Source: Promethearchaeota archaeon
GTDB lineage: Archaea; Asgardarchaeota; Lokiarchaeia; Sigyniarchaeales; SOKP01
DNA: 64,000 bases
Reading direction: 5' to 3'
Assembly: GCA_048940445.1 (NCBI GenBank)
Contig: JBHLON010000008.1
Coordinates: 1 to 64,000 of the forward strand
Shown here piece after piece: positions 8,435 through 62,450 of the stretch. A program made the translations under genes and the position numbers. Positions within the stretch are counted from its first letter, which is position 1; each line of letters opens with the position of its first letter. The notes below the pieces were generated by a model. That model saw only the letters and a list, made by a program, of their open reading frames with translations. It made no database searches and was not told the DNA's origin.

Positions 8435-9223
8435 ATGTCGAAAAAACTAGTTCTTATAGATAAGATGGATAACCTCGCATCAAAATTAAAAATGCAAATT
8501 TTGTTTTCTAAATATCTAAAATACTTAAATAAAAAAGTAAAAGGTTTTCCAGATACAAAAGTAAGTATAAAAAAGTTAAGAACCTTTGATAAGAGATTTG
8601 AAATTGAAATTTCTGGTCCTGAGGAAATCTTTGTATATAATTTATTAAGAAAAGAATTTGGAACGATTCAGCTTTTTGAAAATGTGTCTGAAGGAGATGT
8701 TTATAAAGCTTTAATGGTAGATGTAGGAAAGGTTGGGTTTGGAATCTTTGTTGATTGTGGTGTACTAAATCCTAAAACTGATGTATTAATAACATTACAT
8801 AACATCAGAAATCAACTCTGTAACAAAAAAAAGGTTTCTTTATCGGAGGTTATTAAAAAATATGACTTTATAAATAATTTCCCAATTTATATTAAAATTG
8901 AAAAGGTTGATAATGAGAAGTTTCAAATTGAGGGAAAACTGGCAGATGTTACAATTGATTTCTATGAGAAAATAATAAAGGAGAGTATCGATGGTCTATT
9001 TGTTAGTGGAAAGACAAAAGAAAGAATAAAAAACGTACTTATTAAAACAGATCATATAAGAGATATAATATCAATAGAGAGTTATGGGTTTTTAGAAATA
9101 ATTGTCTTGCTAAAAAAAGGAACTGATGCTGCGGGGATAATAGCCGAAATAGGAAAATATTTGAAGAATTGTAAGATGAGCGCTATTAAAGCTGAAAGAA
9201 TAAAGAGTTTGTTCTATAATTAG
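8435..9223 (+). CDS. DUF2110-like archaeal protein with S1-like domain
   Basis: GPEE..VYNLLRKEFG, VDVGKVGFGIFVD, GTDAAGIIAEIG. Confidence 0.75.
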   Translation: MSKKLVLIDKMDNLASKLKMQILFSKYLKYLNKKVKGFPDTKVSIKKLRTFDKRFEIEISGPEEIFVYNLLRKEFGTIQLFENVSEGDVYKALMVDVGKVGFGIFVDCGVLNPKTDVLITLHNIRNQLCNKKKVSLSEVIKKYDFINNFPIYIKIEKVDNEKFQIEGKLADVTIDFYEKIIKESIDGLFVSGKTKERIKNVLIKTDHIRDIISIESYGFLEIIVLLKKGTDAAGIIAEIGKYLKNCKMSAIKAERIKSLFYN

Positions 9224-9296
9224 TGGGCTCGGGGAGGATTGAACTCCCGACCTTCGCGGTGTAAGCGCGACGTCATAACCACTAGACCACGGGCCC
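9224..9296 (-). tRNA. tRNA-Val(TAC), no intron
   Basis: Cloverleaf: GGGCCCG acceptor, anticodon arm TCGCG-CT TAC AC-CGCGA, T arm GGGAG-TTCAATC-CTCCC; CCA not encoded. Confidence 0.95.
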
Positions 9297-9314
9297 TTAT
9301 ATTTGCATTATAGA

Positions 9315-9417
9315 CGCTCAGGGTGGGATTCGAACCCACGAGTCCTTTGGACACCGGTTTAGCAGACCGGCGCTTTAGGCACGTTTTATACGCTCTACCA
9401 AGCTAAGCGACCTGAGC
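9315..9417 (-). tRNA. tRNA-Ser(GCT) with a 20-nt D-loop intron (about 9375-9394)
   Basis: Acceptor GCTCAGG/CCTGAGC, anticodon arm CCGGT-CT GCT AA-ACCGG, long variable arm GTCC-AAA-GGAC; extra 20 nt between D loop and D-stem 3' strand. Confidence 0.92.
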
Positions 9418-9548
9418 GTAATTTTCCTAATAGCAAATTTATCTATATTTTCTATATAAAAATCCAAAATTTTAATATTTTTTTATTAAAATAGAGTGAT
9501 TTACAGCATTAAAACCCAATAAATAAAAAAATGAAAATTTGATAGTTT

Positions 9549-10739
9549 TTAGTATGAACTCCTTTTTCTTTTTCGATATATTCGTATTTTGTATTCTATA
9601 TACCACCAGAGGACACCAAGCGGAATACAAAAAAGTAAATTAATTAGCAAGTATAAGGAGCATATTAAAGTATTTTTATCATTGATTCCAAGAAGGCTAG
9701 CACAATAGTGATCACCATAGAGAGAATAAACTATCCCAAAATAAAGGATTTGGGCTAATAATATGTGATAAGTTGATTTTCCAATAATCGCAATAGCTTT
9801 TGCAAATGGACTACCGCTTTTTTTAGGTAAGATTTTCATTGCTAGGAGAAATAAGAAGGCAGAGTAGGGAAACACAAAGAGATTATAATCCCCTCGAATG
9901 AAGGGAAAACGAAATTCAAAAAATTGATATGCAATAATATAGAGTAAACTTAAGGGAAATAAAATCCATATAAGTATATTCTGTTTAGCAAATATTTTTG
10001 GGTTCCTAGATAACCACATACCTAATCCAATGGCAGAAAGCATAAATAAAGGGCTTGTGGCAAACCATAAATATATATGTAAGTAACTATAATATGCTTC
10101 CCAAGTTGGAAATGGAATTATGTGAGTTGGAATATAAACGTAGAAGAAAAATAATAACTGAATCGCTATTTCAATTACAAAGCATGCTATTAGAGTGATT
10201 ATGCGCCAGATTAGTTTACCTGAAAAGCCTTTATATAAAAAGGGTAAGAGAAAGATAGATGCAAAGAGTACTGGTAAAAACCAGTTTCCTGGACCCCAAA
10301 ATGGTAATATTCCTATAAAAAGTTGTCCATAACCCCATTGAGGTTGAAATTGTGTTAAAGCATCAATACCATTGATAGCTATACCAATTGAAGTCGACAA
10401 AACATATAAAATCAAAAATGGAAAAATATAGCGCCAAAATTTTCGTTTAAAGTAATTCCAAGAATAAAGTTCTTTTATCTTTATTTGACCCCTTTGCCTA
10501 AATGAATGACCCGCATTAAATCCTAATATCACCAAAAATACTGGTATAGATATTCGCTCCCATAACGCAACTCCCATATAATCTTTATACATCCAAGGGA
10601 TCGTGTGATCAAAGATCACCAAAAATATCATAATAGCTTTAACTATATCGACTTGGAGGAAATTTTCTCTTTTTGAACCCCTATTTTCAATTTCAATTGA
10701 TATTTCATTCATTTCTCTCTCCTTACTTAAATTAAACAT
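9549..10739 (-). CDS. Acyltransferase family 3 (OafA-like) membrane protein
   Basis: QVDIVKAIMIFLVIFDH, IPVFLVILG, GNWFL, IGKSTYHILLAQ; about 10 TM segments. Confidence 0.85.
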   Translation of the reverse strand: MFNLSKEREMNEISIEIENRGSKRENFLQVDIVKAIMIFLVIFDHTIPWMYKDYMGVALWERISIPVFLVILGFNAGHSFRQRGQIKIKELYSWNYFKRKFWRYIFPFLILYVLSTSIGIAINGIDALTQFQPQWGYGQLFIGILPFWGPGNWFLPVLFASIFLLPFLYKGFSGKLIWRIITLIACFVIEIAIQLLFFFYVYIPTHIIPFPTWEAYYSYLHIYLWFATSPLFMLSAIGLGMWLSRNPKIFAKQNILIWILFPLSLLYIIAYQFFEFRFPFIRGDYNLFVFPYSAFLFLLAMKILPKKSGSPFAKAIAIIGKSTYHILLAQILYFGIVYSLYGDHYCASLLGINDKNTLICSLYLLINLLFCIPLGVLWWYIEYKIRIYRKRKRSSY

Positions 10740-10856
10740 AATAAAAATTACAAAACCAAAAATTTGGAAACTTTTTAAATTTACTAAATTTCTTTATATA
10801 AGTGTTAAAACTTTAAAAAGGAAGAGAAAGCCAATAGACTGTATTTTTACTATTAT

Positions 10857-11339
10857 CTATTCAGAGATTATCTCAAAAATCATTTTTTCTATTATGGGTT
10901 TCTTGGTATATCTCTTATCATAATACCAACCAACCAAATGAGGTTCTTGTTGTTTGTCTGGAACTGACGGAATAATTATTATCATAACTCCGTTGGATAA
11001 ATACTTTAATATTCTCTTATCTATACCATGAAGTTTCTCATTTCCTCCAGGATGAGAATGTCCTTGCCACACTATATCCACACCAAGCTCTTGTTTAAAT
11101 TTACGCATATTATAAATTTTTGATTTTTTGTAACGCATCCAACTTCTGGGTTTTACATGAGCTTTAGTCTTACGTAAATCGGAATTTATTATAAATTTAG
11201 TTACAATGCCAAAATTTTCTTTTCGATCAGCAAATATCCAAAAGTGGATGATATAGGGATATTCTTCAGCTGCTTTTTGAGTGATTTCATCAAAAATTCG
11301 TTGGGGTATGAGATATCGAAAATCTTTCGCTGCACTCAT
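10857..11339 (-). CDS. JAB/MPN-domain protein (divergent JAMM motif)
   Basis: I..KAAEEYP, GHSHPGG....H.ID, terminal beta strand MIIII. Confidence 0.75.
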   Translation of the reverse strand: MSAAKDFRYLIPQRIFDEITQKAAEEYPYIIHFWIFADRKENFGIVTKFIINSDLRKTKAHVKPRSWMRYKKSKIYNMRKFKQELGVDIVWQGHSHPGGNEKLHGIDKRILKYLSNGVMIIIIPSVPDKQQEPHLVGWYYDKRYTKKPIIEKMIFEIISE

Positions 11340-11516
11340 TTTTACACCATCTCAATTAGAGTTAAATATAGGGCAAAATTTATATTTTTCCGTAAATAAC
11401 GCCGAAGCTTGATGATTCTAAAGAGAAGAATGAAAAAAGATTTATTTTATCAAATATACACTACTTTAATATTAGAAGTCTGATTAGACTACTATATAAT
11501 TTAAGGTTTTTGTTAA

Positions 11517-11617
11517 GCAGACGTAGCCTAGTTGGTAAGACGCCAGCCTTGAGTAATATCTTATTCAAGTAAGCTGGTGCGCAAAAGCGCTCGAGGGTTC
11601 GAGTCCCTCCGTCTGCG
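11517..11617 (+). tRNA. tRNA-Ser(TGA) with canonical 37/38 intron (11554-11571, 18 nt)
   Basis: Acceptor GCAGACG/CGTCTGC; strict BHB ccagc-cttg-agt-aata-tct-tatt-caag-taa-gctgg; long variable arm. Confidence 0.95.
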
Positions 11618-11647
11618 CTTAAACACAGAATAAATTTCGGAATTTTA

Positions 11648-11752
11648 CGGGCTATAGGGGATTTCCAATCATTAGGGAAAACCTAATGGAATTTTGAACC
11701 CCCGACCTGCCGGTTAAGAGCCGGTTGCGCTACCTGACTGCGCCAATAGCCC
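11648..11752 (-). tRNA. tRNA-Lys(CTT) with a 31-nt T-loop intron at 59/60 (11662-11692)
   Basis: Acceptor GGGCTAT/ATAGCCC, anticodon loop CT CTT AA; removing the insert restores T loop TTCAAAT. Confidence 0.92.
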
Positions 11753-11871
11753 ATTCATAGGTATAATTGTTTAGTTAAATAAGGTATAAATAATATAAGA
11801 AATCTTCTATTTTAGAAAAATAACATTATAAACAACATGAAATAGGTTTCCTTTGGGATTCTCATAGAATT

Positions 11872-45242: not shown

Positions 45243-46343
45243 TTATTCATCACTACCAACTATTATAGCTCTTTCATAATCCAAATTTAATAGCTTTACT
45301 TCTTTTTTAGAATATTTAGAAATTTTATTATTAATTTTCACCAATTTTCCTCGGAGCTTTAATAGAGTATCTTGAATTTTATCGACAATTTTTTCCTCAT
45401 TAAACGATACTTTTTCTATAAATGTAAGATAACCGCACTTTTTATCCCTACCAGAATACAATCTCTTATTATCCAAAAGTTTCTTCTCAATGTTATTTAA
45501 TTTTAAGCTTATATTGAGCAAATCAATTAATTTTGACTTCCACTGTAGAAAAATTTTGTTTTTTGTATTTATCTTTTCAAATTTAAATTTCTCAGGAAGT
45601 TCAATTTTATTTTCATTAAGGAAATTAAAAATGTCCTTATTTTCTTCTATTGCTTTATAGATCTTATTTAACACAGGTTTGGTATTTAAACTTGGTTCAA
45701 ATATACTTATAAATTCATTAGTTTTACCTTTAATTTCTTTGAATCTTTGAAAAAAACCCTCTATTGTAATCTCAATTTTTATAGTCTGATAAATATTGCC
45801 ATACTGATCTAATATATAGTATAGATCATCAGATAAAGTATAATCATGATCGCTAATTTCAAATATTAAAGAATGAATAATATTACTAGATTCACACCTT
45901 ACCCCTTTTAATTTTGTGAGAGCTAAATTAAAATTTCTTCTTGACAAAGATTTAAACTTTTTATTTATGATTAGAAAAAGTGTATCATCGGGTACAGAAA
46001 TCACGTTATTATCCAATGTTACTGTTTCCATACCTAATTTTATAATAAAATCATCTTTCTTTTGTTCAAATTCTTTTATACTCCGAATATTTTTGAATAA
46101 TCCAAGATCGATTGCTGTCTCAGTAAATTCTCTTGGCCAAAATTTTATAATATTACTTTTATAAATATCATCTAATACTAAAACTCTCTCGTATGATTCT
46201 ATAATACTTTGATCGCTTAAATCTTTAAATAAATCATTCCTGATGATGTAGAGAAATAATATGATATATCTCATGTCTATATCGTCAAGGATTTTATCAA
46301 TTAGATTCTTATCATAATCCATTGACAAATTTTTGTGTTCCAT
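45243..46343 (-). CDS. Hypothetical protein: possible winged helix followed by coiled coil (first gene of operon)
   Basis: LSRRNFNLALTKL...DYTLSD wHTH-like segment, then heptad-rich C-terminal half. Confidence 0.7.
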   Translation of the reverse strand: MEHKNLSMDYDKNLIDKILDDIDMRYIILFLYIIRNDLFKDLSDQSIIESYERVLVLDDIYKSNIIKFWPREFTETAIDLGLFKNIRSIKEFEQKKDDFIIKLGMETVTLDNNVISVPDDTLFLIINKKFKSLSRRNFNLALTKLKGVRCESSNIIHSLIFEISDHDYTLSDDLYYILDQYGNIYQTIKIEITIEGFFQRFKEIKGKTNEFISIFEPSLNTKPVLNKIYKAIEENKDIFNFLNENKIELPEKFKFEKINTKNKIFLQWKSKLIDLLNISLKLNNIEKKLLDNKRLYSGRDKKCGYLTFIEKVSFNEEKIVDKIQDTLLKLRGKLVKINNKISKYSKKEVKLLNLDYERAIIVGSDE

Positions 46344-57155: not shown

Positions 57156-59447
57156 ATGATTATGAACAATAAGTCCTTTAAATCTTATTCTTCAAAAAAA
57201 GATGTAAAAGAAAACATCGTCAACCCTTCCTATTATGATCCTAATACCTCAAAACGTAAAATTGAAGCATCAAAATTCACAAACATAAATGATAAACCGA
57301 AAAATGTAATCAAAGCTCCAAAAGTTGAACATTTCTCTACCTCCAAAAATAAAATTAACTCTCCACATCTCGATTCCAAGCCAGAATCATTAAATAGAAT
57401 CGAATCACCTACAATGGCAATAATCAGTCCAATCAAAAATGAAACCCAACTACCACAAACTCAAGAATCCATCGATGTAGTGAAAAAATCAAGCACGTAT
57501 AGTTCCCAAAAAAGTTGGAAATTTATGAATTATGACCAAAACGGCAAAACTTTTTCTCGAGAACAAAAATTAAAAGTTGCAGAAAAATATTTCAATTCCA
57601 AGATCTTACCAAAATTAAAATTAGATACTAAAATTAAAGAAAAATTAAAATCAGGAAAGGGAATAGGTGTCCGAGACCTTAATACACATGGATTTAGTAT
57701 GTTCTATCACAGTCTTACGAATTATGGAATTAAGGTTAAGTGGAATGAATTTAAAGCATTTGTAGGGTATAAAATTAGTATCGACCAAGATAAATACCGA
57801 TTCCTAAATTTCAATAAAGATGGAAACCGCTTAACCAAGCAAGAAAAAATGAGTATTGCCAAAAAGCATTTCAAAAATACAATCTTACATGATTTAGCAA
57901 AGATACCTGAAATCAAAGAAAAGTTAAGCATGGGAAAACCACCTACATATGCAGATTTACATCGTTATGGTCATTCAGGATTTATTGGTCCTCTTAGTCA
58001 AAAAAAACCTAAAATACGATACAATGAATTATTGAGAAGTTTTGATTTTAGACCAAATGTTATTAGAGGAAAGTATAAGTTCCTAAATTACGATAAAAAT
58101 GGAAATCTATTATCCTCCAGGGAGAAATTAAATATTGCAGTAAAACAGCTCAAGGGACATATTATCCCTACTCTTTTAGAAAAAGGAAAATATAAAGAAA
58201 GCCAACCTATTACAAGAAAGCTTCTTGATCAACATGGTTTCCAACACTTTACACATGCATTTGCTAATGAAGGTCCAAAAATTAACTTTAACGCATTATT
58301 AACTAAAGCTGGATATGAAATTAATATTGATCATAAAAAATGGGTTTTTTTAAAATATAATAAAAATGGTAAAATTCTATCCGTTAAAGAGAAACTAGAG
58401 AAAGCTGTGGATTATTTTCAGAATAAAATCTATCCGGGCTTGGTCCAAAAAGGAGTAGTAATCAAAGGTGAAGCTCCTACAACATTAGATTTAATTAAAA
58501 ATGAATTTACAGATTATTTAAATGCTATTATTCAAAAAAAACCTAAAATTTCTTTTAATCAAGTCATAAAGAAAGCAGGATTTGAACCAAAATCTTCTCA
58601 AGACCACGATAAGTGGAAGATTTTCTATGATGAAAATATGAAACCATTCTCTAGAGATGGAATTTTAAAGGTTGCAGCAAAATATTTTAAGGAGAGTGTA
58701 ATTCCAGATTTAATTAAAAAAAAAGCCATTGTAAAGGGTCAAAATCCAAGTGTGCATATATTAAAGAAATATGGACATTATGATTTTTTCAAGGCTATTG
58801 GAAGAAGAGGTTTGAATTATAATGAAATTCTTGTTGAAGTAGGTTATGACCCAAATTTTGCTAATAAGATGTCTGAAATCGGAGTAAACTTTCATTGGAA
58901 TGCTGAAAGAATCTTTTTAGAGCATACAAGAAATCTGAAATGTAATTCATTTTATGAAGTGAAAGGTAATGCTGATAATTCGATAATTGTTAACGAGAAT
59001 TTTAAACAACTATCACTTCTTTCAAATACTTTTACTCAAAAGCATCCTGAGATTAAAATTATTAATTTTGATTATTATTTAAGCGCAGCGAAAGAAAAGG
59101 TCTTAGAACACGGCGTAAGAGGTTATCAAGGAGAAGATAAAGCATTAATTCTTGTTCCAATCAATGCAAAAAAACCCCAAAAAATAGAATATGATTTGCC
59201 TTTTAGTTCTAACATTTTAGTGCTTAATCCCAAAACTTTTATTAATTTTATGGGTTATAAGAGCAAGATTCGGGAAGAATTCATAGAGATTATTGAACTA
59301 GCAAGAAAAGCGCCTTTTACACAGATTTGTGAACAATTACTTCGACAAAAAGCTTTAAAGAGTGTAAAATCAATTAAATTGGTTAAAAATGATCTAAATT
59401 ATTCTACTAATGAATATAGAATTTACATAAAAGAGAAAAAGGATTAA
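57156..59447 (+). CDS. Repeat-containing protein with putative C-terminal PD-(D/E)xK-like nuclease domain
   Basis: Low-complexity N-terminus, five repeats of about 90 aa, then G.NFH...E...YE...ADNSI...INFDY. Confidence 0.75.
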   Translation: MIMNNKSFKSYSSKKDVKENIVNPSYYDPNTSKRKIEASKFTNINDKPKNVIKAPKVEHFSTSKNKINSPHLDSKPESLNRIESPTMAIISPIKNETQLPQTQESIDVVKKSSTYSSQKSWKFMNYDQNGKTFSREQKLKVAEKYFNSKILPKLKLDTKIKEKLKSGKGIGVRDLNTHGFSMFYHSLTNYGIKVKWNEFKAFVGYKISIDQDKYRFLNFNKDGNRLTKQEKMSIAKKHFKNTILHDLAKIPEIKEKLSMGKPPTYADLHRYGHSGFIGPLSQKKPKIRYNELLRSFDFRPNVIRGKYKFLNYDKNGNLLSSREKLNIAVKQLKGHIIPTLLEKGKYKESQPITRKLLDQHGFQHFTHAFANEGPKINFNALLTKAGYEINIDHKKWVFLKYNKNGKILSVKEKLEKAVDYFQNKIYPGLVQKGVVIKGEAPTTLDLIKNEFTDYLNAIIQKKPKISFNQVIKKAGFEPKSSQDHDKWKIFYDENMKPFSRDGILKVAAKYFKESVIPDLIKKKAIVKGQNPSVHILKKYGHYDFFKAIGRRGLNYNEILVEVGYDPNFANKMSEIGVNFHWNAERIFLEHTRNLKCNSFYEVKGNADNSIIVNENFKQLSLLSNTFTQKHPEIKIINFDYYLSAAKEKVLEHGVRGYQGEDKALILVPINAKKPQKIEYDLPFSSNILVLNPKTFINFMGYKSKIREEFIEIIELARKAPFTQICEQLLRQKALKSVKSIKLVKNDLNYSTNEYRIYIKEKKD
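57516..58870 (+). repeat. Five tandem protein-level repeats of about 90 aa
   Basis: Each unit starts W/Y-x-F-L-N-Y-D/N-K-N-G, continues EKL..A..YF...I.P.L and G..PT..DL...G...F, and ends (F/W/Y)N..L...G(F/Y). Confidence 0.85.
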
Positions 59448-59616
59448 ATTATTTTTTTGAAAGTAATTAATGGCTCTTGAAAAAGAAATTATAAATATTG
59501 AGAATATTATTATTAATAAAATAAAAAATAGAGCTATTATTATCTCAAATAAAAATAAGGTAATGAAAATGTGTTGGCTTAATAGGACAATAAGCTTAAG
59601 AGGTGAACCATAAAAA

Positions 59617-60406
59617 GTGCTCCATAATTTTTATTTAATAGATCAGTATACAGGTAAAAAATAAAAGGATTTTTTTCTTATTTTCCTGAATTTGTCTGAT
59701 CCATAGGAAATATGGAACCATTGAGTTTAATCAAGATTTAGTTTCAGGTTTTCTAACTGCCCTTAAAGACTTTAGTGTTGAGTTCTCAAAAGGAAGTGGT
59801 GAACTCAAAATTATAGATTGTGGATAGAGTATATTCATAAATAAAAATATGCAGATTTTTTATCTGTTGTTGGTCTTTAAGGAGGGTGTATTATGTACTG
59901 CTGCAGCTGACAAAAATGATGATGCTAAAATTACCCATAAAGCGTTGAGCGATATTATTGACAAATTTATTGAAGTTCATGGTGAAACAATTAAAAATTG
60001 GGGAGGTGATGTTCGTCTTTTTAGAGATTTTGAACCAATTATAGATACAATTCTACAGGGAGGAAGGATAGCAGAAGTCCAAATGAAGATACCAATACTA
60101 AAGATTTATGAAAAAGATTTCCTTAAGTCCCGTAAGCAGATTACAAAAAAAGGTTTGATAATTTCTGAAGAAGATTTGCGAAAGTCTCAAAACCAAAAGC
60201 CTGAATGGACTTCAAAGAGATTACCAACACAAATAATAACTCAAGGTTTTTTGGATGAACAAATGTATAAGATAGCACACTTAGCAGATGGTTTTCATAC
60301 AATTTCAGATATTGCAGAAGAAAGTGGTAAACCTGAAAGTGAAATCGAAGTAATGATTGATGATTTGGATGATTTAGGGCTTTTAAAATTTATTGAGCTT
60401 AAGTAA
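59617..60406 (+). CDS. Intron-containing longin-domain + winged-helix protein: join(59617..59656,59691..59816,59847..60406), 241 aa
   Basis: GAGGTGA SD at 59600-59606. Spliced product MLHNFYLIDQYTGICLIHRKYGTIEFNQDLVSGFLTALKDFSVEFSKGSGELKIIDMQIFYLLLVFKEGVLCTAAADK... reads as a longin fold; C-terminal ADGFHTISDIAEESG..ESEIEVMIDDLDDLGLL is wHTH-like. Confidence 0.8.
59657..59690 (+). other. BHB-type intron 1 (34 nt) in protein-coding gene
   Basis: Central helix CAGG/CCTG, bulges TAA and AAT, inner stem AAAATAA/TTATTTT, outer GATCAG/CTGATC; contains an in-frame TAA and shifts the frame. Confidence 0.8.
59817..59846 (+). other. BHB-type (relaxed) intron 2 (30 nt) in protein-coding gene
   Basis: Central helix TTAT/ATAA, bulges AGA and AAA, 9-bp inner stem TTGTGGATA/TATTCATAA; contains an in-frame TAG. 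Confidence 0.78.
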
Positions 60407-60538
60407 AAATTTTAATATAAAGTTATAAACATTGATTTTCAATACTTTTTATATTTAATAAAAATAGGTCTCTTTCCTAATTTTCTTCCTTATAAAAATA
60501 AAAAAATTTATGAAAATTCTTCTATTTATTAATGTATT

Positions 60539-62005
60539 ATGAATATGAATAAAATTGATGACAATATATACGAAATACCACCAACAACGCTAATGGCACG
60601 AGTGGAAGGGAGAATTGAGAAATTTCAAATGAAGGTACCCGTCCATATTTATGCTAATGAGTATATTCTTGAAAAAATCAAACAAGATAAAACTCTTGAC
60701 CAAATTGCTAATGTAGCTTGTTTAAAGGGAGTTGAAAAGCATGTTATAGCCCTCTCAGATGCTCATCAAGGCTACGGTTTTTGTATAGGAGGTGTTGCTG
60801 GGACAGATGCAGAAACAGGGATGATATCACCTGGAGGAGTTGGTTATGATATTAACTGTGGGGTAAGATTATTAAGGACAAATTTGATGATTCAAGACAT
60901 AGATAACACGTTACCAAGTTTATTGAATACCATTTTTAAAAATATACCATCTGGTTTGGGTTCCAAAGGGAAACTAAATATTAATTTTTCAGATTTAGAT
61001 GATGTATTGAATACTGGAATGAATTGGACATTAGAAAATAATTATGCTATTGATGAAGATCTTAAACATTGCGAAGAAAAAGGTTGTTTGAAAGATGCTG
61101 ATGCTAATTTAGTTTCCAAAAAAGCTAAGGAAAGGGGATTCAAACAACTTGGATCACTAGGGAGTGGAAATCACTTTCTTGAGATACAGAAAGTTGATGA
61201 GATTTTTAATGAATTAACGGCAAAAAAGTTAGGGATATATGAGAAAGACCAAATCACGATTATGGTTCATACAGGATCTCGGGCGCTTGGACATCAAGTT
61301 TGTACCGATTCGTTACGAAGTGTAGAAAGAGCAATGAAGAAATACAACATAAAAGTACCAGATCGTGAATTAGCATGCGTTCCTGCAGACACTCCTGAAG
61401 CTCAAAATTATCTAAGTCAAATGGCTTGTGCGGCAAATTTTGGATTTGCTAATCGTCAGTTGATTACTCATTGGTTACGAGAATCTTTTCAACAACATTT
61501 CAAAGGGGAGGATTTAGATTTGCAATTGGTATATGGAGTATGTCACAATATTCTGAAGATTGAAGAGCATGAAATAAATGGGAAAAAAGTGAATTTAAAT
61601 GTACATCGTAAGGGTGCTACTAGGGCTTTTCCCCCTGGGCATCCAGTACTTCCTCAAGAGTATAGAGATATAGGACAACCAGTATTAATTCCGGGTACCA
61701 TGGGTAGCGCTTCATATCTTTGTGTAGGGAAGCCCAAATCAATGGAACTTTCTTTTGGGTCTACTGCTCATGGATCGGGAAGAATTATGTCTAGATCTAA
61801 AGCGATTTCAAAATATAGGGGGTCTATAGTAAGAGAAGATCTCAATAATCGAGGTATTTTAATTAAAGCAGCATCAATGAAAGTAATTGCCGAAGAAGCC
61901 CCAGGTGCTTATAAAGATATCGATCAAGTTGTTCAAGTAAGTCATGATTTAGACATTGTTGAAAAGATTGTAAGATTAGTCCCGATTGGTGTTGTAAAAG
62001 GTTAG
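60539..62005 (+). CDS. rtcB: tRNA-splicing ligase RtcB
   Basis: DAHQGYGF, GYDINCG, GSGNHF, HTGSR, HN, HRKGAT, STAHGSGR, EEAP.AYK; no intein. Confidence 0.97.
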   Translation: MNMNKIDDNIYEIPPTTLMARVEGRIEKFQMKVPVHIYANEYILEKIKQDKTLDQIANVACLKGVEKHVIALSDAHQGYGFCIGGVAGTDAETGMISPGGVGYDINCGVRLLRTNLMIQDIDNTLPSLLNTIFKNIPSGLGSKGKLNINFSDLDDVLNTGMNWTLENNYAIDEDLKHCEEKGCLKDADANLVSKKAKERGFKQLGSLGSGNHFLEIQKVDEIFNELTAKKLGIYEKDQITIMVHTGSRALGHQVCTDSLRSVERAMKKYNIKVPDRELACVPADTPEAQNYLSQMACAANFGFANRQLITHWLRESFQQHFKGEDLDLQLVYGVCHNILKIEEHEINGKKVNLNVHRKGATRAFPPGHPVLPQEYRDIGQPVLIPGTMGSASYLCVGKPKSMELSFGSTAHGSGRIMSRSKAISKYRGSIVREDLNNRGILIKAASMKVIAEEAPGAYKDIDQVVQVSHDLDIVEKIVRLVPIGVVKG

Positions 62006-62012
62006 TTTACAT

Positions 62013-62450
62013 TTAGATATCGAATATAATCTCGATTTCAAATTTATCTTTTTTTTCTTGTATATTCATATATGAATAAGTAACCGCTTTTACTTCAGTC
62101 CCAATTTCATGTTTATTTTTATCAAATTTCTCTCCTTTAACAATAGATTTTAGATAATAGTCATTATTTGTTATCGTTATCAAATCAACTATAATATCGC
62201 TAAAAATTAATCCTTCTACGTCAAAAAAATATAGAAATTCAGAGAGATAGTCAAATAATAAAGAATATATATCTTCTGATGTTACTTCAATATTCTTTTC
62301 AATAAATGGTGATACTTTTTTTAAATCTGGAGACATTATAGCCATTAAACTTAAAGCTGTTTGTGTAAATGCTTCTTCTAAAGTTGTTCCCCAACTTCTC
62401 ACTTTAATGTCTGCAGTATGTTCTTTAAATTCAAATCCTGCTTTCTTCAT
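62013..62450 (-). CDS. Archease (RtcB cofactor)
   Basis: EHTADI, GTEVKAVTY, C-terminal FDI. Confidence 0.95.
   Translation of the reverse strand: MKKAGFEFKEHTADIKVRSWGTTLEEAFTQTALSLMAIMSPDLKKVSPFIEKNIEVTSEDIYSLLFDYLSEFLYFFDVEGLIFSDIIVDLITITNNDYYLKSIVKGEKFDKNKHEIGTEVKAVTYSYMNIQEKKDKFEIEIIFDI

What the first reader, a model, noticed from the sequence alone, without database searches (positions are those of the whole stretch)
59617..60406. Protein-coding gene split by two tRNA-type (BHB) introns: candidate mRNA splicing in an Asgard archaeon
Seen: the 185-aa ORF at 59849 is only the tail of a gene that starts at GTG 59617 behind a GAGGTGA SD. Two short inserts interrupt it and both fold like splicing-endonuclease substrates. 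Insert 1: 4-bp helix CAGG(59651-54)/CCTG(59685-88), bulges TAA and AAT, 7-bp inner stem. Insert 2: 4-bp helix TTAT(59811-14)/ATAA(59841-44), bulges AGA and AAA, 9-bp inner stem, weak outer helix. Established: archaeal EndA cuts after the second nucleotide of each 3-nt bulge. Applying that rule removes 59657-59690 (34 nt) and 59817-59846 (30 nt), giving ACA GGT A|TT TGT (TGIC) and ATA G|AT ATG (IDM). This removes both stops, fixes the frameshift and yields a continuous 241-aa longin + wHTH protein. Two independent in-frame repairs at the rule-defined positions are hard to explain as decay or sequencing error. Archaeal mRNA introns are rare (cbf5 of Crenarchaeota is the classic case); I know of no two-intron example in a eukaryotic-signature gene.
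Basis: partly seen in the sequence, partly recalled or inferred. Interest (0 to 1): 0.96.

Follow-up and report, generated by a model that had tools for sequence, protein, structure and literature searches.

The report
Two tRNA-type introns in Asgard mRNA
A conserved gene beside the RNA-ligase gene rtcB in a Loki-type Asgard archaeon is broken by two ~30-base hairpins shaped like tRNA introns, so its messenger RNA very probably has to be cut and rejoined by the tRNA-splicing enzymes, which the papers I could search report inside an archaeal coding sequence for only one gene (cbf5).

Summary
Observation confirmed. Removing 59657-59690 (34 nt) and 59817-59846 (30 nt) at the bulge-helix-bulge (BHB) cut points gives a 241-aa longin + winged-helix protein that aligns without a gap to intron-less orthologues (closest 92.5%). 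Intron 2 sits at the same base in 18 genomes of 5 genera (29-30 nt, always with a stop, compensatory pairing); intron 1 is in 5 genomes (28-37 nt); 6 genomes have a third site 6 nt upstream. Exons 1-2 stay under purifying selection, and synonymous exon bases follow the pairing only in carriers. The genome encodes two EndA subunits; rtcB and archease follow the gene. It is not an isolated case: I verified at least 9 more BHB inserts in this genome's protein genes (uL11 twice, dnaG, UvrA, a Rab-like GTPase), and the only rtcB found in five relatives is frameshifted by one. Best reading (0.92): real EndA/RtcB-spliced mRNA introns of a mobile ~30-nt class, gained and lost on short DNA tracts. A dedicated feedback loop on ligase capacity is possible (about 0.15). 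No spliced RNA was seen. The scan found this gene and this class before on other DNA.

The parts
59600..59606 (+). Shine-Dalgarno-like motif, 10 nt before the start codon
   Evidence: Sequence; similar motif before the same codon in orthologues
59617..59656 (+). Exon 1 (codons 1-13 plus 1 nt; GTG start; longin strand 1)
   Evidence: Aligns to residues 1-13 of intron-less orthologues
59641..59646 (+). 5' strand of the exon-exon outer helix of BHB 1 (pairs with 59696-59701)
   Evidence: 5-bp pairing kept in 5 of 5 intron-1 carriers against 2 of 56 others, with compensatory synonymous changes
59651..59691 (+). BHB motif 1: central helix 59651-54/59685-88, bulges 59655-57 and 59689-91
   Evidence: z -2.2
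59657..59690 (+). Intron 1, 34 nt, in codon 14 phase 1; shifts the frame and carries TAA 59662-64
   Evidence: Same site in G018, G026, G065, G097 with 33, 37, 29, 28 nt
59691..59816 (+). Exon 2 (126 nt, codons 14-56)
   Evidence: Nearly invariant protein; pN/pS 0.015-0.12 over codons 2-55 between carriers
59811..59847 (+). BHB motif 2: central helix 59811-14/59841-44, bulges 59815-17 and 59845-47, 9-bp inner stem
   Evidence: 92.4% of cells paired and 6 pairs with two-sided change in 16 genomes; slid controls 32-56%
59817..59846 (+). Intron 2, 30 nt, in the invariant Asp56 codon, phase 1; in-frame TAG 59825-27
   Evidence: Same site and phase in 18 genomes of 5 genera, 29-30 nt, all with a stop
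59847..60406 (+). Exon 3 (rest of the longin domain, linker, C-terminal winged helix); ATG 59849 is internal Met57
60539..62005 (+). rtcB, RNA-splicing ligase (intact here; conserved neighbour)
   Evidence: Pfam RtcB E 5e-168; adjacent in most loci of the family and divergently arranged in three other families
62013..62450 (-). Archease, activator of RtcB
   Evidence: Pfam Archease E 8e-43; same cluster in four families

Best explanation
The gene is intact and is read from a spliced mRNA. Each insert folds with its flanking exon bases into a bulge-helix-bulge; the cell's two-subunit tRNA-splicing endonuclease (EndA) cuts after the second base of each bulge, RtcB (helped by archease) joins the exons, and the product is a 241-aa longin + winged-helix protein. 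Unspliced or half-spliced RNA gives only 15- or 58-aa peptides. The introns are two members of a class of ~30-nt BHB introns that this Lokiarchaeia family carries in tRNA genes and in many unrelated protein genes. They are tolerated passengers that are gained and lost on short DNA tracts exchanged between lineages. Shown: sequence, frame repair, conservation, covariation, selection on exons, presence of the enzymes. Inferred: cleavage and ligation in the cell, exact junctions, tract exchange.
For: Gap-free alignment to intron-less orthologues. Same-site inserts of different sequence and length in 20 of about 125 family genomes, including lengths that shift the frame. Central helix 4 of 4 paired in all 18 intron-2 carriers; covariation above all 500 shuffles and far above slid controls (kinship inflates this test). 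Exon bases that build the motif are kept only in carriers: 7 of 7 against 3 of 54 for the last six bases of exon 2, 5 of 5 against 2 of 56 for the outer helix of intron 1 (not independent samples). 17 synonymous against 1 non-synonymous difference in codons 2-55 between two-intron genomes G000 and G065. Two EndA paralogues, one with the catalytic motif. Motif-free census against 2.37 Mb of G019: 8 of 15 ORF-breaking inserts reach a full BHB score against 0 of 36 in-frame open inserts. Same-site BHB inserts in an AIR-synthase-family gene (6 genomes read) and UvrA (4 genomes). The one uL11 locus found in this genome is broken by two BHB inserts and dnaG by one. The only rtcB found in five relatives, two of them 98-100% complete, is frameshifted by a 29-nt BHB insert inside its active-site motif. 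Precedent: cbf5 (PMC2738675).
Against: No spliced transcript or cleavage assay was seen. Intron 2 has a weak outer helix and its central helix is outside the minimum-energy fold; several carriers of intron 1 have one mismatch in the central helix. About five of six orthologues have no intron, so it is dispensable. All genomes are metagenome assemblies.
Confidence: 0.92

Rival explanations
1. Splicing is real and is also a selected control point: the longin-winged-helix protein regulates or partners rtcB/archease, and its introns make its synthesis report how much cutting and joining capacity the cell has (a loop like HAC1/XBP1 splicing). This adds to the best explanation rather than replacing it.
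For: Gene, rtcB and archease stay together in four families and through rearrangements; the gene is divergent from rtcB in three families. Three distinct intron sites in this one gene, and a fourth in rtcB itself. All 18 copies of intron 2 keep an in-frame stop. A regulatory role was proposed for the cbf5 intron (PMC2738675).
Against: About 105 of 125 genomes lack the introns. Carriers are scattered on the gene tree with no clustering (16 changes for 18 carriers, shuffled mean 16.3; carriers were over-sampled outside the genus). Unrelated genes carry introns at similar rates: AIR-synthase family 8 of 37, UvrA 4 of 28. The fold matches trafficking longins and, weakly over the full length, GATOR1/SEA subunits, so the winged helix need not bind DNA.
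Confidence: 0.15
2. The gene is a pseudogene, or makes only the 185-aa tail, and the inserts are inert hairpins from replication slippage or tiny inverted-repeat elements.
For: Hairpins are common in this AT-rich genome. The 5' arm of intron 2 resembles a copy of its own target site (8-9 of 9 bases in four genomes).
Against: Exons 1-2 are under strong purifying selection in carriers; inserts have diverged by compensatory changes and so are old; pairing lies exactly in BHB register; the tail lacks two strands and a helix of the longin fold and shows no SD-like motif; rtcB and uL11 carry the same kind of insert.
Confidence: 0.03
3. The ribosome hops over the inserts (translational bypass or recoding) without RNA cleavage.
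For: Each insert has an early stop near a hairpin, as in T4 gene 60 (own knowledge).
Against: I saw no matched take-off and landing codons; both inserts split a codon (phase 1), and other inserts of the class fall in all three phases; the conserved pairing includes exon-intron central helices and 3-nt bulges that a hop does not need; inserts of the same size and shape lie in tRNA genes.
Confidence: 0.02
4. The inserts are removed from the DNA in part of the population (programmed excision or mixed alleles), not from RNA.
For: Close relatives lack the inserts precisely; no reads were available to look for two DNA forms.
Against: Intron-less relatives differ from their carrier sisters across 100-200 nt of exon (G018 against G029: 18 of 50 synonymous sites alike in codons 2-56, 115 of 128 after codon 100), which is tract replacement, not clean excision. 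No consistent flanking direct repeats. The geometry matches an RNA enzyme.
Confidence: 0.02

Closest known systems
cbf5 pre-mRNA intron of Crenarchaeota (Desulfurococcales, Sulfolobales; Watanabe 2002; Yokobori 2009, PMC2738675)
   Same: Short (16-44 nt there, 28-37 nt here) non-coding intron inside a coding sequence; BHB or relaxed BHB at the borders; hetero-oligomeric EndA in the host; lineage-specific absence; spliced cDNA shown for cbf5.
   Different: One intron in one gene of another phylum. Here two introns in one gene, three sites in the family, a longin (eukaryotic-signature) protein, scattered presence, and at least ten further genes with such inserts; splicing not yet observed.
Non-canonical tRNA introns of Asgard archaea (bioRxiv 10.64898/2026.10.13.758758; Valentin-Alvarado 2024 as cited there)
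   Same: Same motif and enzyme; repeated gains; several per gene; in this genus tRNA inserts are also 30-31 nt.
   Different: That work covers tRNA genes (the word mRNA does not occur in its main text), focuses on other families, and says none has been shown spliced in a cell and that the route of arrival is open.
BHB intron in the 5' UTR of Haloferax HVO_1309 (Schwarz 2020, PMC7714728)
   Same: EndA acts on a messenger RNA; excised intron seen as a circle.
   Different: Untranslated region, 46 nt, no effect on the reading frame.
IRE1/RtcB splicing of XBP1 and HAC1 mRNA (eukaryotes; own knowledge, reviewed in PMC13149111)
   Same: A short, non-spliceosomal intron removed from an mRNA by an endonuclease and a tRNA-type ligase restores the frame.
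   Different: Different nuclease and recognition motif; signal-controlled. No evidence of control here; resemblance only.
NPRL2-like longin proteins of Asgard archaea (Liu 2020, bioRxiv 10.1101/2020.10.19.343400) - for the protein
   Same: N-terminal longin domain with a small C-terminal domain; weak full-length fold hits to GATOR1/SEA chains.
   Different: Best hits are Sec22b, VAMP7 and AP sigma/mu longins; full-length hits have rmsd 12-15 A; no sequence match; membership not established.

Membership tests
Archaeal BHB (EndA/RtcB) intron | 4-bp central helix between two 3-nt bulges on opposite strands, with flanking helices | tested here: met
   Both introns 4 of 4 pairs with inner stems of 7 and 9 bp; outer helix clear for intron 1 (after an internal loop), one pair for intron 2
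Archaeal BHB (EndA/RtcB) intron | Cuts after the second bulge base restore the uninterrupted molecule | tested here: met
   241-aa product colinear with intron-less orthologues; BHB register is among the 4 and 2 registers that keep the conserved residues
Archaeal BHB (EndA/RtcB) intron | Structure, not sequence, conserved across carriers | tested here: met
   6 pairs with two-sided change, 92.4% paired, slid controls 32-56%; lengths 28-37 nt at site 1
Archaeal BHB (EndA/RtcB) intron | Host encodes EndA and the ligase | tested here: met
   Two EndA paralogues (C3, C62), RtcB and archease in the window
Archaeal BHB (EndA/RtcB) intron | Spliced RNA or excised intron seen in cells | not testable with these tools
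   No run could be listed for this stretch, so no reads were laid
Archaeal BHB (EndA/RtcB) intron | Cleavage by the cognate EndA in vitro | not testable with these tools
   Bench experiment
cbf5 intron family | Host gene is cbf5 and the intron splits its catalytic codon | tested here: not met
   Host is a longin + winged-helix gene; works like the cbf5 intron but is not homologous
Group I / group II / homing-endonuclease introns | Ribozyme core or intron-encoded ORF | tested here: not met
   Inserts are 30-34 nt single hairpins; Rfam finds only three tRNAs in the window
Longin domain proteins | Five-stranded sheet with one helix on one face and two on the other, about 130 residues | tested here: met
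   Model residues 1-135 match Sec22b longin at Z 12.3, rmsd 2.7 A over 118 residues; weak Pfam Longin hit in 27 of 29 orthologues; residues 36-59 poorly modelled
NPRL2/NPRL3 (GATOR1) | Longin followed by NPRL2-type C-terminal domain; GAP motif | tested here: inconclusive
   Full-length Foldseek hits to SEA/GATOR1 chains at E 5e-4 to 4e-3 but rmsd 14-15 A; no sequence hit in the PDB search; GAP motif not examined

The most novel reading that the evidence does not exclude
The rtcB-linked longin-winged-helix gene is a splicing-gated regulator: its two BHB introns make its synthesis depend on EndA and RtcB activity and it feeds back on rtcB/archease, an archaeal counterpart of HAC1/XBP1-type regulated mRNA splicing, sitting inside a genome-wide, spliceosome-free mRNA intron system in close relatives of eukaryotes.
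Probability: 0.15. Interest if true: 0.92.

Novelty: new variant of a known kind. Interest (0 to 1): 0.8.

Why it matters
Published work that I could search knows one archaeal coding-sequence intron (cbf5). Here multi-intron mRNAs and a genome-wide class of ~30-nt protein-spliced introns appear in Asgard archaea, the relatives of eukaryotes, in longin, Rab-like GTPase, uL11, dnaG and rtcB genes. If confirmed by RNA, (1) mRNA splicing without a spliceosome is routine in this lineage, which bears on how eukaryotic ancestors came to tolerate introns and on the origin of RtcB-dependent mRNA splicing; (2) Asgard gene catalogues are missing or truncating real genes scored as frameshifted; (3) coding-sequence introns, with synonymous sites as markers, make the open question of how BHB introns arrive testable: here they move on 100-200-nt tracts, and two sites look like a local duplication folded back on itself.

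Tried and rejected
RNA evidence: no RNA holder was listed for 59500-62450, so no reads were laid; this is neither for nor against. De novo BHB scan with frame-joining and codon-bias filters: no excess over a mirror-image control, and the two real introns scored low on codon bias; dropped in favour of a motif-free comparison. Complex prediction of the protein with RtcB: no answer, score 0.00; not used either way. Target-duplication test: clear for intron 2 and the AIR-synthase-family intron, not for 13 other sites including intron 1, so not a general origin. Sequence search of the PDB: only weak winged-helix hits; NCBIfam none. Bacterial promoter/terminator scan: at chance level and not suited to archaea. 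Link between the upstream 763-aa nuclease-like gene and intron presence: none (present in carriers and non-carriers). Six literature searches found no paper on introns in Asgard protein-coding genes; subscription journals are largely missing from the library. Assembly artefact rejected (20 independent assemblies).

Full report
Observation. A GTG at 59617, ten bases after an SD-like motif, opens a frame that stops after 15 codons. Two inserts form bulge-helix-bulge (BHB) motifs: central helices 59651-54/59685-88 and 59811-14/59841-44, each four Watson-Crick pairs, each followed on both strands by a 3-nt bulge, with inner stems of 7 and 9 pairs. Cutting after the second base of each bulge (the established EndA rule) removes 34 and 30 nt and leaves 726 nt, a 241-aa protein. 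Shuffling each insert reaches the same score with p about 0.003. Shape alone is weak evidence in this genome: a scan for BHB motifs that join frames gave as many hits as a mirror-image control. The case rests on relatives.

Relatives. The genome belongs to a Lokiarchaeia (Promethearchaeota) genus of 42 species; named relatives are Promethearchaeota MAGs. Most orthologues are uninterrupted and align to the spliced product over residues 1-241 with exactly 723 nt (720 in a few with a one-codon deletion in exon 3); the closest is 92.5% identical. Across about 125 genomes of the family, 20 in five genera carry inserts. Intron 2 lies in the invariant Asp56 codon, phase 1, in 18 genomes: 30 nt in 16 and 29 nt in two, always with an in-frame stop, always with four of four central pairs. 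Intron 1 (codon 14, phase 1) is in five genomes with 34, 33, 37, 29 and 28 nt. Six genomes of another genus have a different first intron at codon 12, with its own BHB. Nine genomes have two introns. On the 16 intron-2 copies of 30 nt, 92.4% of cells pair and six pairs show two-sided changes; sliding the partner strand drops pairing to 32-56% (kinship inflates the shuffle test).

Selection. If the RNA were not spliced, codons 1-55 would be dead sequence. Between carriers they show pN/pS of 0.015-0.12; G000 and G065, both with two introns, differ at 17 synonymous and 1 non-synonymous position. Synonymous exon bases that build the motifs are kept in carriers only: the last six bases of exon 2 in 7 of 7 against 3 of 54, and a 5-bp exon-exon helix around intron 1 in 5 of 5 against 2 of 56, with a Gln codon and a Leu codon changing together. 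This is selection on an RNA structure that spans the exon-intron borders.

Machinery and neighbourhood. The genome has two EndA paralogues; one has the motif with the catalytic Tyr, His and Lys by my reading, the other lacks the His, which fits the two-subunit type that accepts relaxed motifs (PMC2738675; bioRxiv 10.64898/2026.10.13.758758). rtcB follows 132 nt downstream and archease converges on it. The three genes stay together across the family and in three other families, where the gene is transcribed divergently from rtcB.

The protein. A model built from intron-less orthologues (mean pLDDT 71) has a longin domain at residues 1-135 (Sec22b longin Z 12.3, rmsd 2.7 A, 118 residues) and a C-terminal winged helix (weak Pfam HTH hits in all 29 orthologues). 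Weak full-length hits go to GATOR1/SEA chains; NPRL2-like longins are described from Asgard archaea (bioRxiv 10.1101/2020.10.19.343400), but membership is not shown. Both introns fall in the longin domain; the annotated 185-aa ORF starts at internal Met57 and lacks the first two strands and the first helix.

A class, not a single case. A motif-free comparison with 2.37 Mb of the closest intron-less genome found 15 ORF-breaking inserts in well-aligned frames (two probably not real genes); 8 reach a full BHB score, against 0 of 36 in-frame open inserts. In this genome they lie in a Rab-like GTPase, UvrA, an AIR-synthase-family gene, an LMW phosphatase (weaker, 21 nt) and a small unknown gene; in the other genome in two GTPases, a hydrogenase small subunit, an AMP/thymidine phosphorylase, an Fe-S protein and a zinc-finger protein (the last six named from motifs by eye; three have relaxed motifs). 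The AIR-synthase and UvrA inserts recur at the same base in other genomes with compensatory changes; the GTPase insert was found only here among 42 genomes. Following leads from the scan's notes I checked uL11 (one locus, two BHB inserts of 38 and 29 nt, spliced product about 165 aa), dnaG (37 nt) and a GH38 gene (30 nt) in this genome. With the two introns of the finding that is at least 11 mRNA inserts. tRNA genes of both genomes gain and lose 30-31-nt BHB inserts too. The strongest argument came from neighbours: in five relatives the only rtcB found is frameshifted by a 29-nt perfect BHB insert inside the GGVGY-DINC active-site motif, two of them 98-100% complete. Cells with intron-bearing tRNAs need this ligase (established knowledge), so it is unlikely to be a pseudogene.

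Gain and loss. Carriers of intron 2 are scattered on a tree of the 3' part of the gene (16 changes for 18 carriers, as in shuffles; at least 5 forced by strong branches; carriers over-sampled outside the genus). Sister genomes that differ in intron content differ sharply in the first 60 codons but not later (G018 against G029: 18 of 50 synonymous sites alike in codons 2-56, 115 of 128 after codon 100), while distant carriers are more alike near intron 2 than elsewhere. Nine of eleven genomes with a first intron also have intron 2. I infer exchange of short 5' tracts by recombination between lineages, plus constraint from the RNA structure; precise loss through a cDNA of the cell's own mRNA would not leave this pattern. 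The 5' arm of intron 2 repeats the joined target site (up to 9 of 9 bases), as does the AIR-synthase intron; 13 other sites do not. This hints at birth by local duplication and fold-back for some introns only.

Mechanism and rivals. Most likely (0.92): EndA cuts both motifs, RtcB with archease joins the exons, and the introns are tolerated passengers. A selected feedback loop on splicing capacity is possible (0.15): the link to rtcB and three intron sites in one gene favour it, but five of six orthologues lack introns and unrelated genes carry them at similar rates. Pseudogene (0.03), ribosome hopping (0.02) and DNA excision (0.02) fit poorly. What is missing is direct RNA evidence.

Known and new. 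The closest case is the cbf5 intron of Crenarchaeota (PMC2738675), called the only such case in 2020 beside a 5' UTR intron in Haloferax (PMC7714728). A preprint of October 2026 on Asgard introns covers tRNA genes only. My searches found no paper on introns in Asgard coding sequences. It works like the cbf5 intron and meets every BHB-intron feature I could test, but it is not homologous to it, and differs in number per gene, host lineage and genome-wide spread: a new variant of a known kind. The scan noted this gene, the rtcB intron and the class before on other DNA; those notes are not counted as evidence here.

Noticed in passing
L292-L296 (G001, G093, G015, G095, G086), rtcB codon 103: The only rtcB found in five relatives is frameshifted by a 29-nt perfect BHB insert inside the active-site motif, so making ligase would need ligase.
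   Followed up: yes
G000 contig C61:46028-46065 and 46116-46144 (L297); C67:4642-4678; C78 near 67400: uL11 has two BHB inserts (38, 29 nt), dnaG one (37 nt) and a GH38 gene one (30 nt) in this genome; leads from the scan's notes, checked by script.
   Followed up: yes
G000 C72:22765(-), C63:31236(-), C61:8911(+), C134:109550(+), C84:60595(-): BHB inserts of 30, 31, 30, 30 and 21 nt in a Rab-like GTPase, UvrA, an AIR-synthase-family gene, a small unknown gene and an LMW phosphatase.
   Followed up: partly
G019 loci L163:6026, L123:15320, L140:1577, L094:14413, L070:15021, L147:16087: 29-31-nt ORF-breaking hairpin inserts absent from G000, in a hydrogenase small subunit, two GTPases, an AMP/thymidine phosphorylase, a zinc-finger and an Fe-S protein (named by eye).
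   Followed up: partly
L275-L279, L281 (genus g28): A third, independent intron site in the same gene, at codon 12, six bases upstream of intron 1, 30-31 nt.
   Followed up: yes
L291 (G076 paralogue, 40% identical): A distant paralogue has a 30-nt stop-bearing insert at the position of intron 2, with a relaxed motif.
   Followed up: partly
Orthologue starts, L003-L030 and L173-L221: Codon 1 of the orthologues is mostly not ATG/GTG: ATC 16, TTG 15, ATT 13, GTT 5, ATG 5, GTG 4, ATA 2, ACG 2 of 62, usually behind an SD-like motif; suggests frequent near-cognate initiation. In-frame starts a few codons upstream were not excluded.
   Followed up: no
window 57156-59447 (+): 763-aa protein of ~90-residue repeats with a C-terminal PD-(D/E)xK-like domain (Atlas scores under 0.9, lead only); present directly upstream of the gene in only some genomes, like mobile cargo between cutA and the gene.
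   Followed up: partly
window 9223-11754; whole genome: ARAGORN finds only 13 tRNAs in a 93%-complete genome, and 30-31-nt BHB inserts differ between G000 and G019 in tRNA T-loops; most tRNA genes are probably hidden by non-canonical introns.
   Followed up: partly
L031, L034, L038, L043, L176: In the G018/G065/G063/G012/G021 group 1.5-4 kb of extra DNA separates the gene from rtcB; contents not examined.
   Followed up: no
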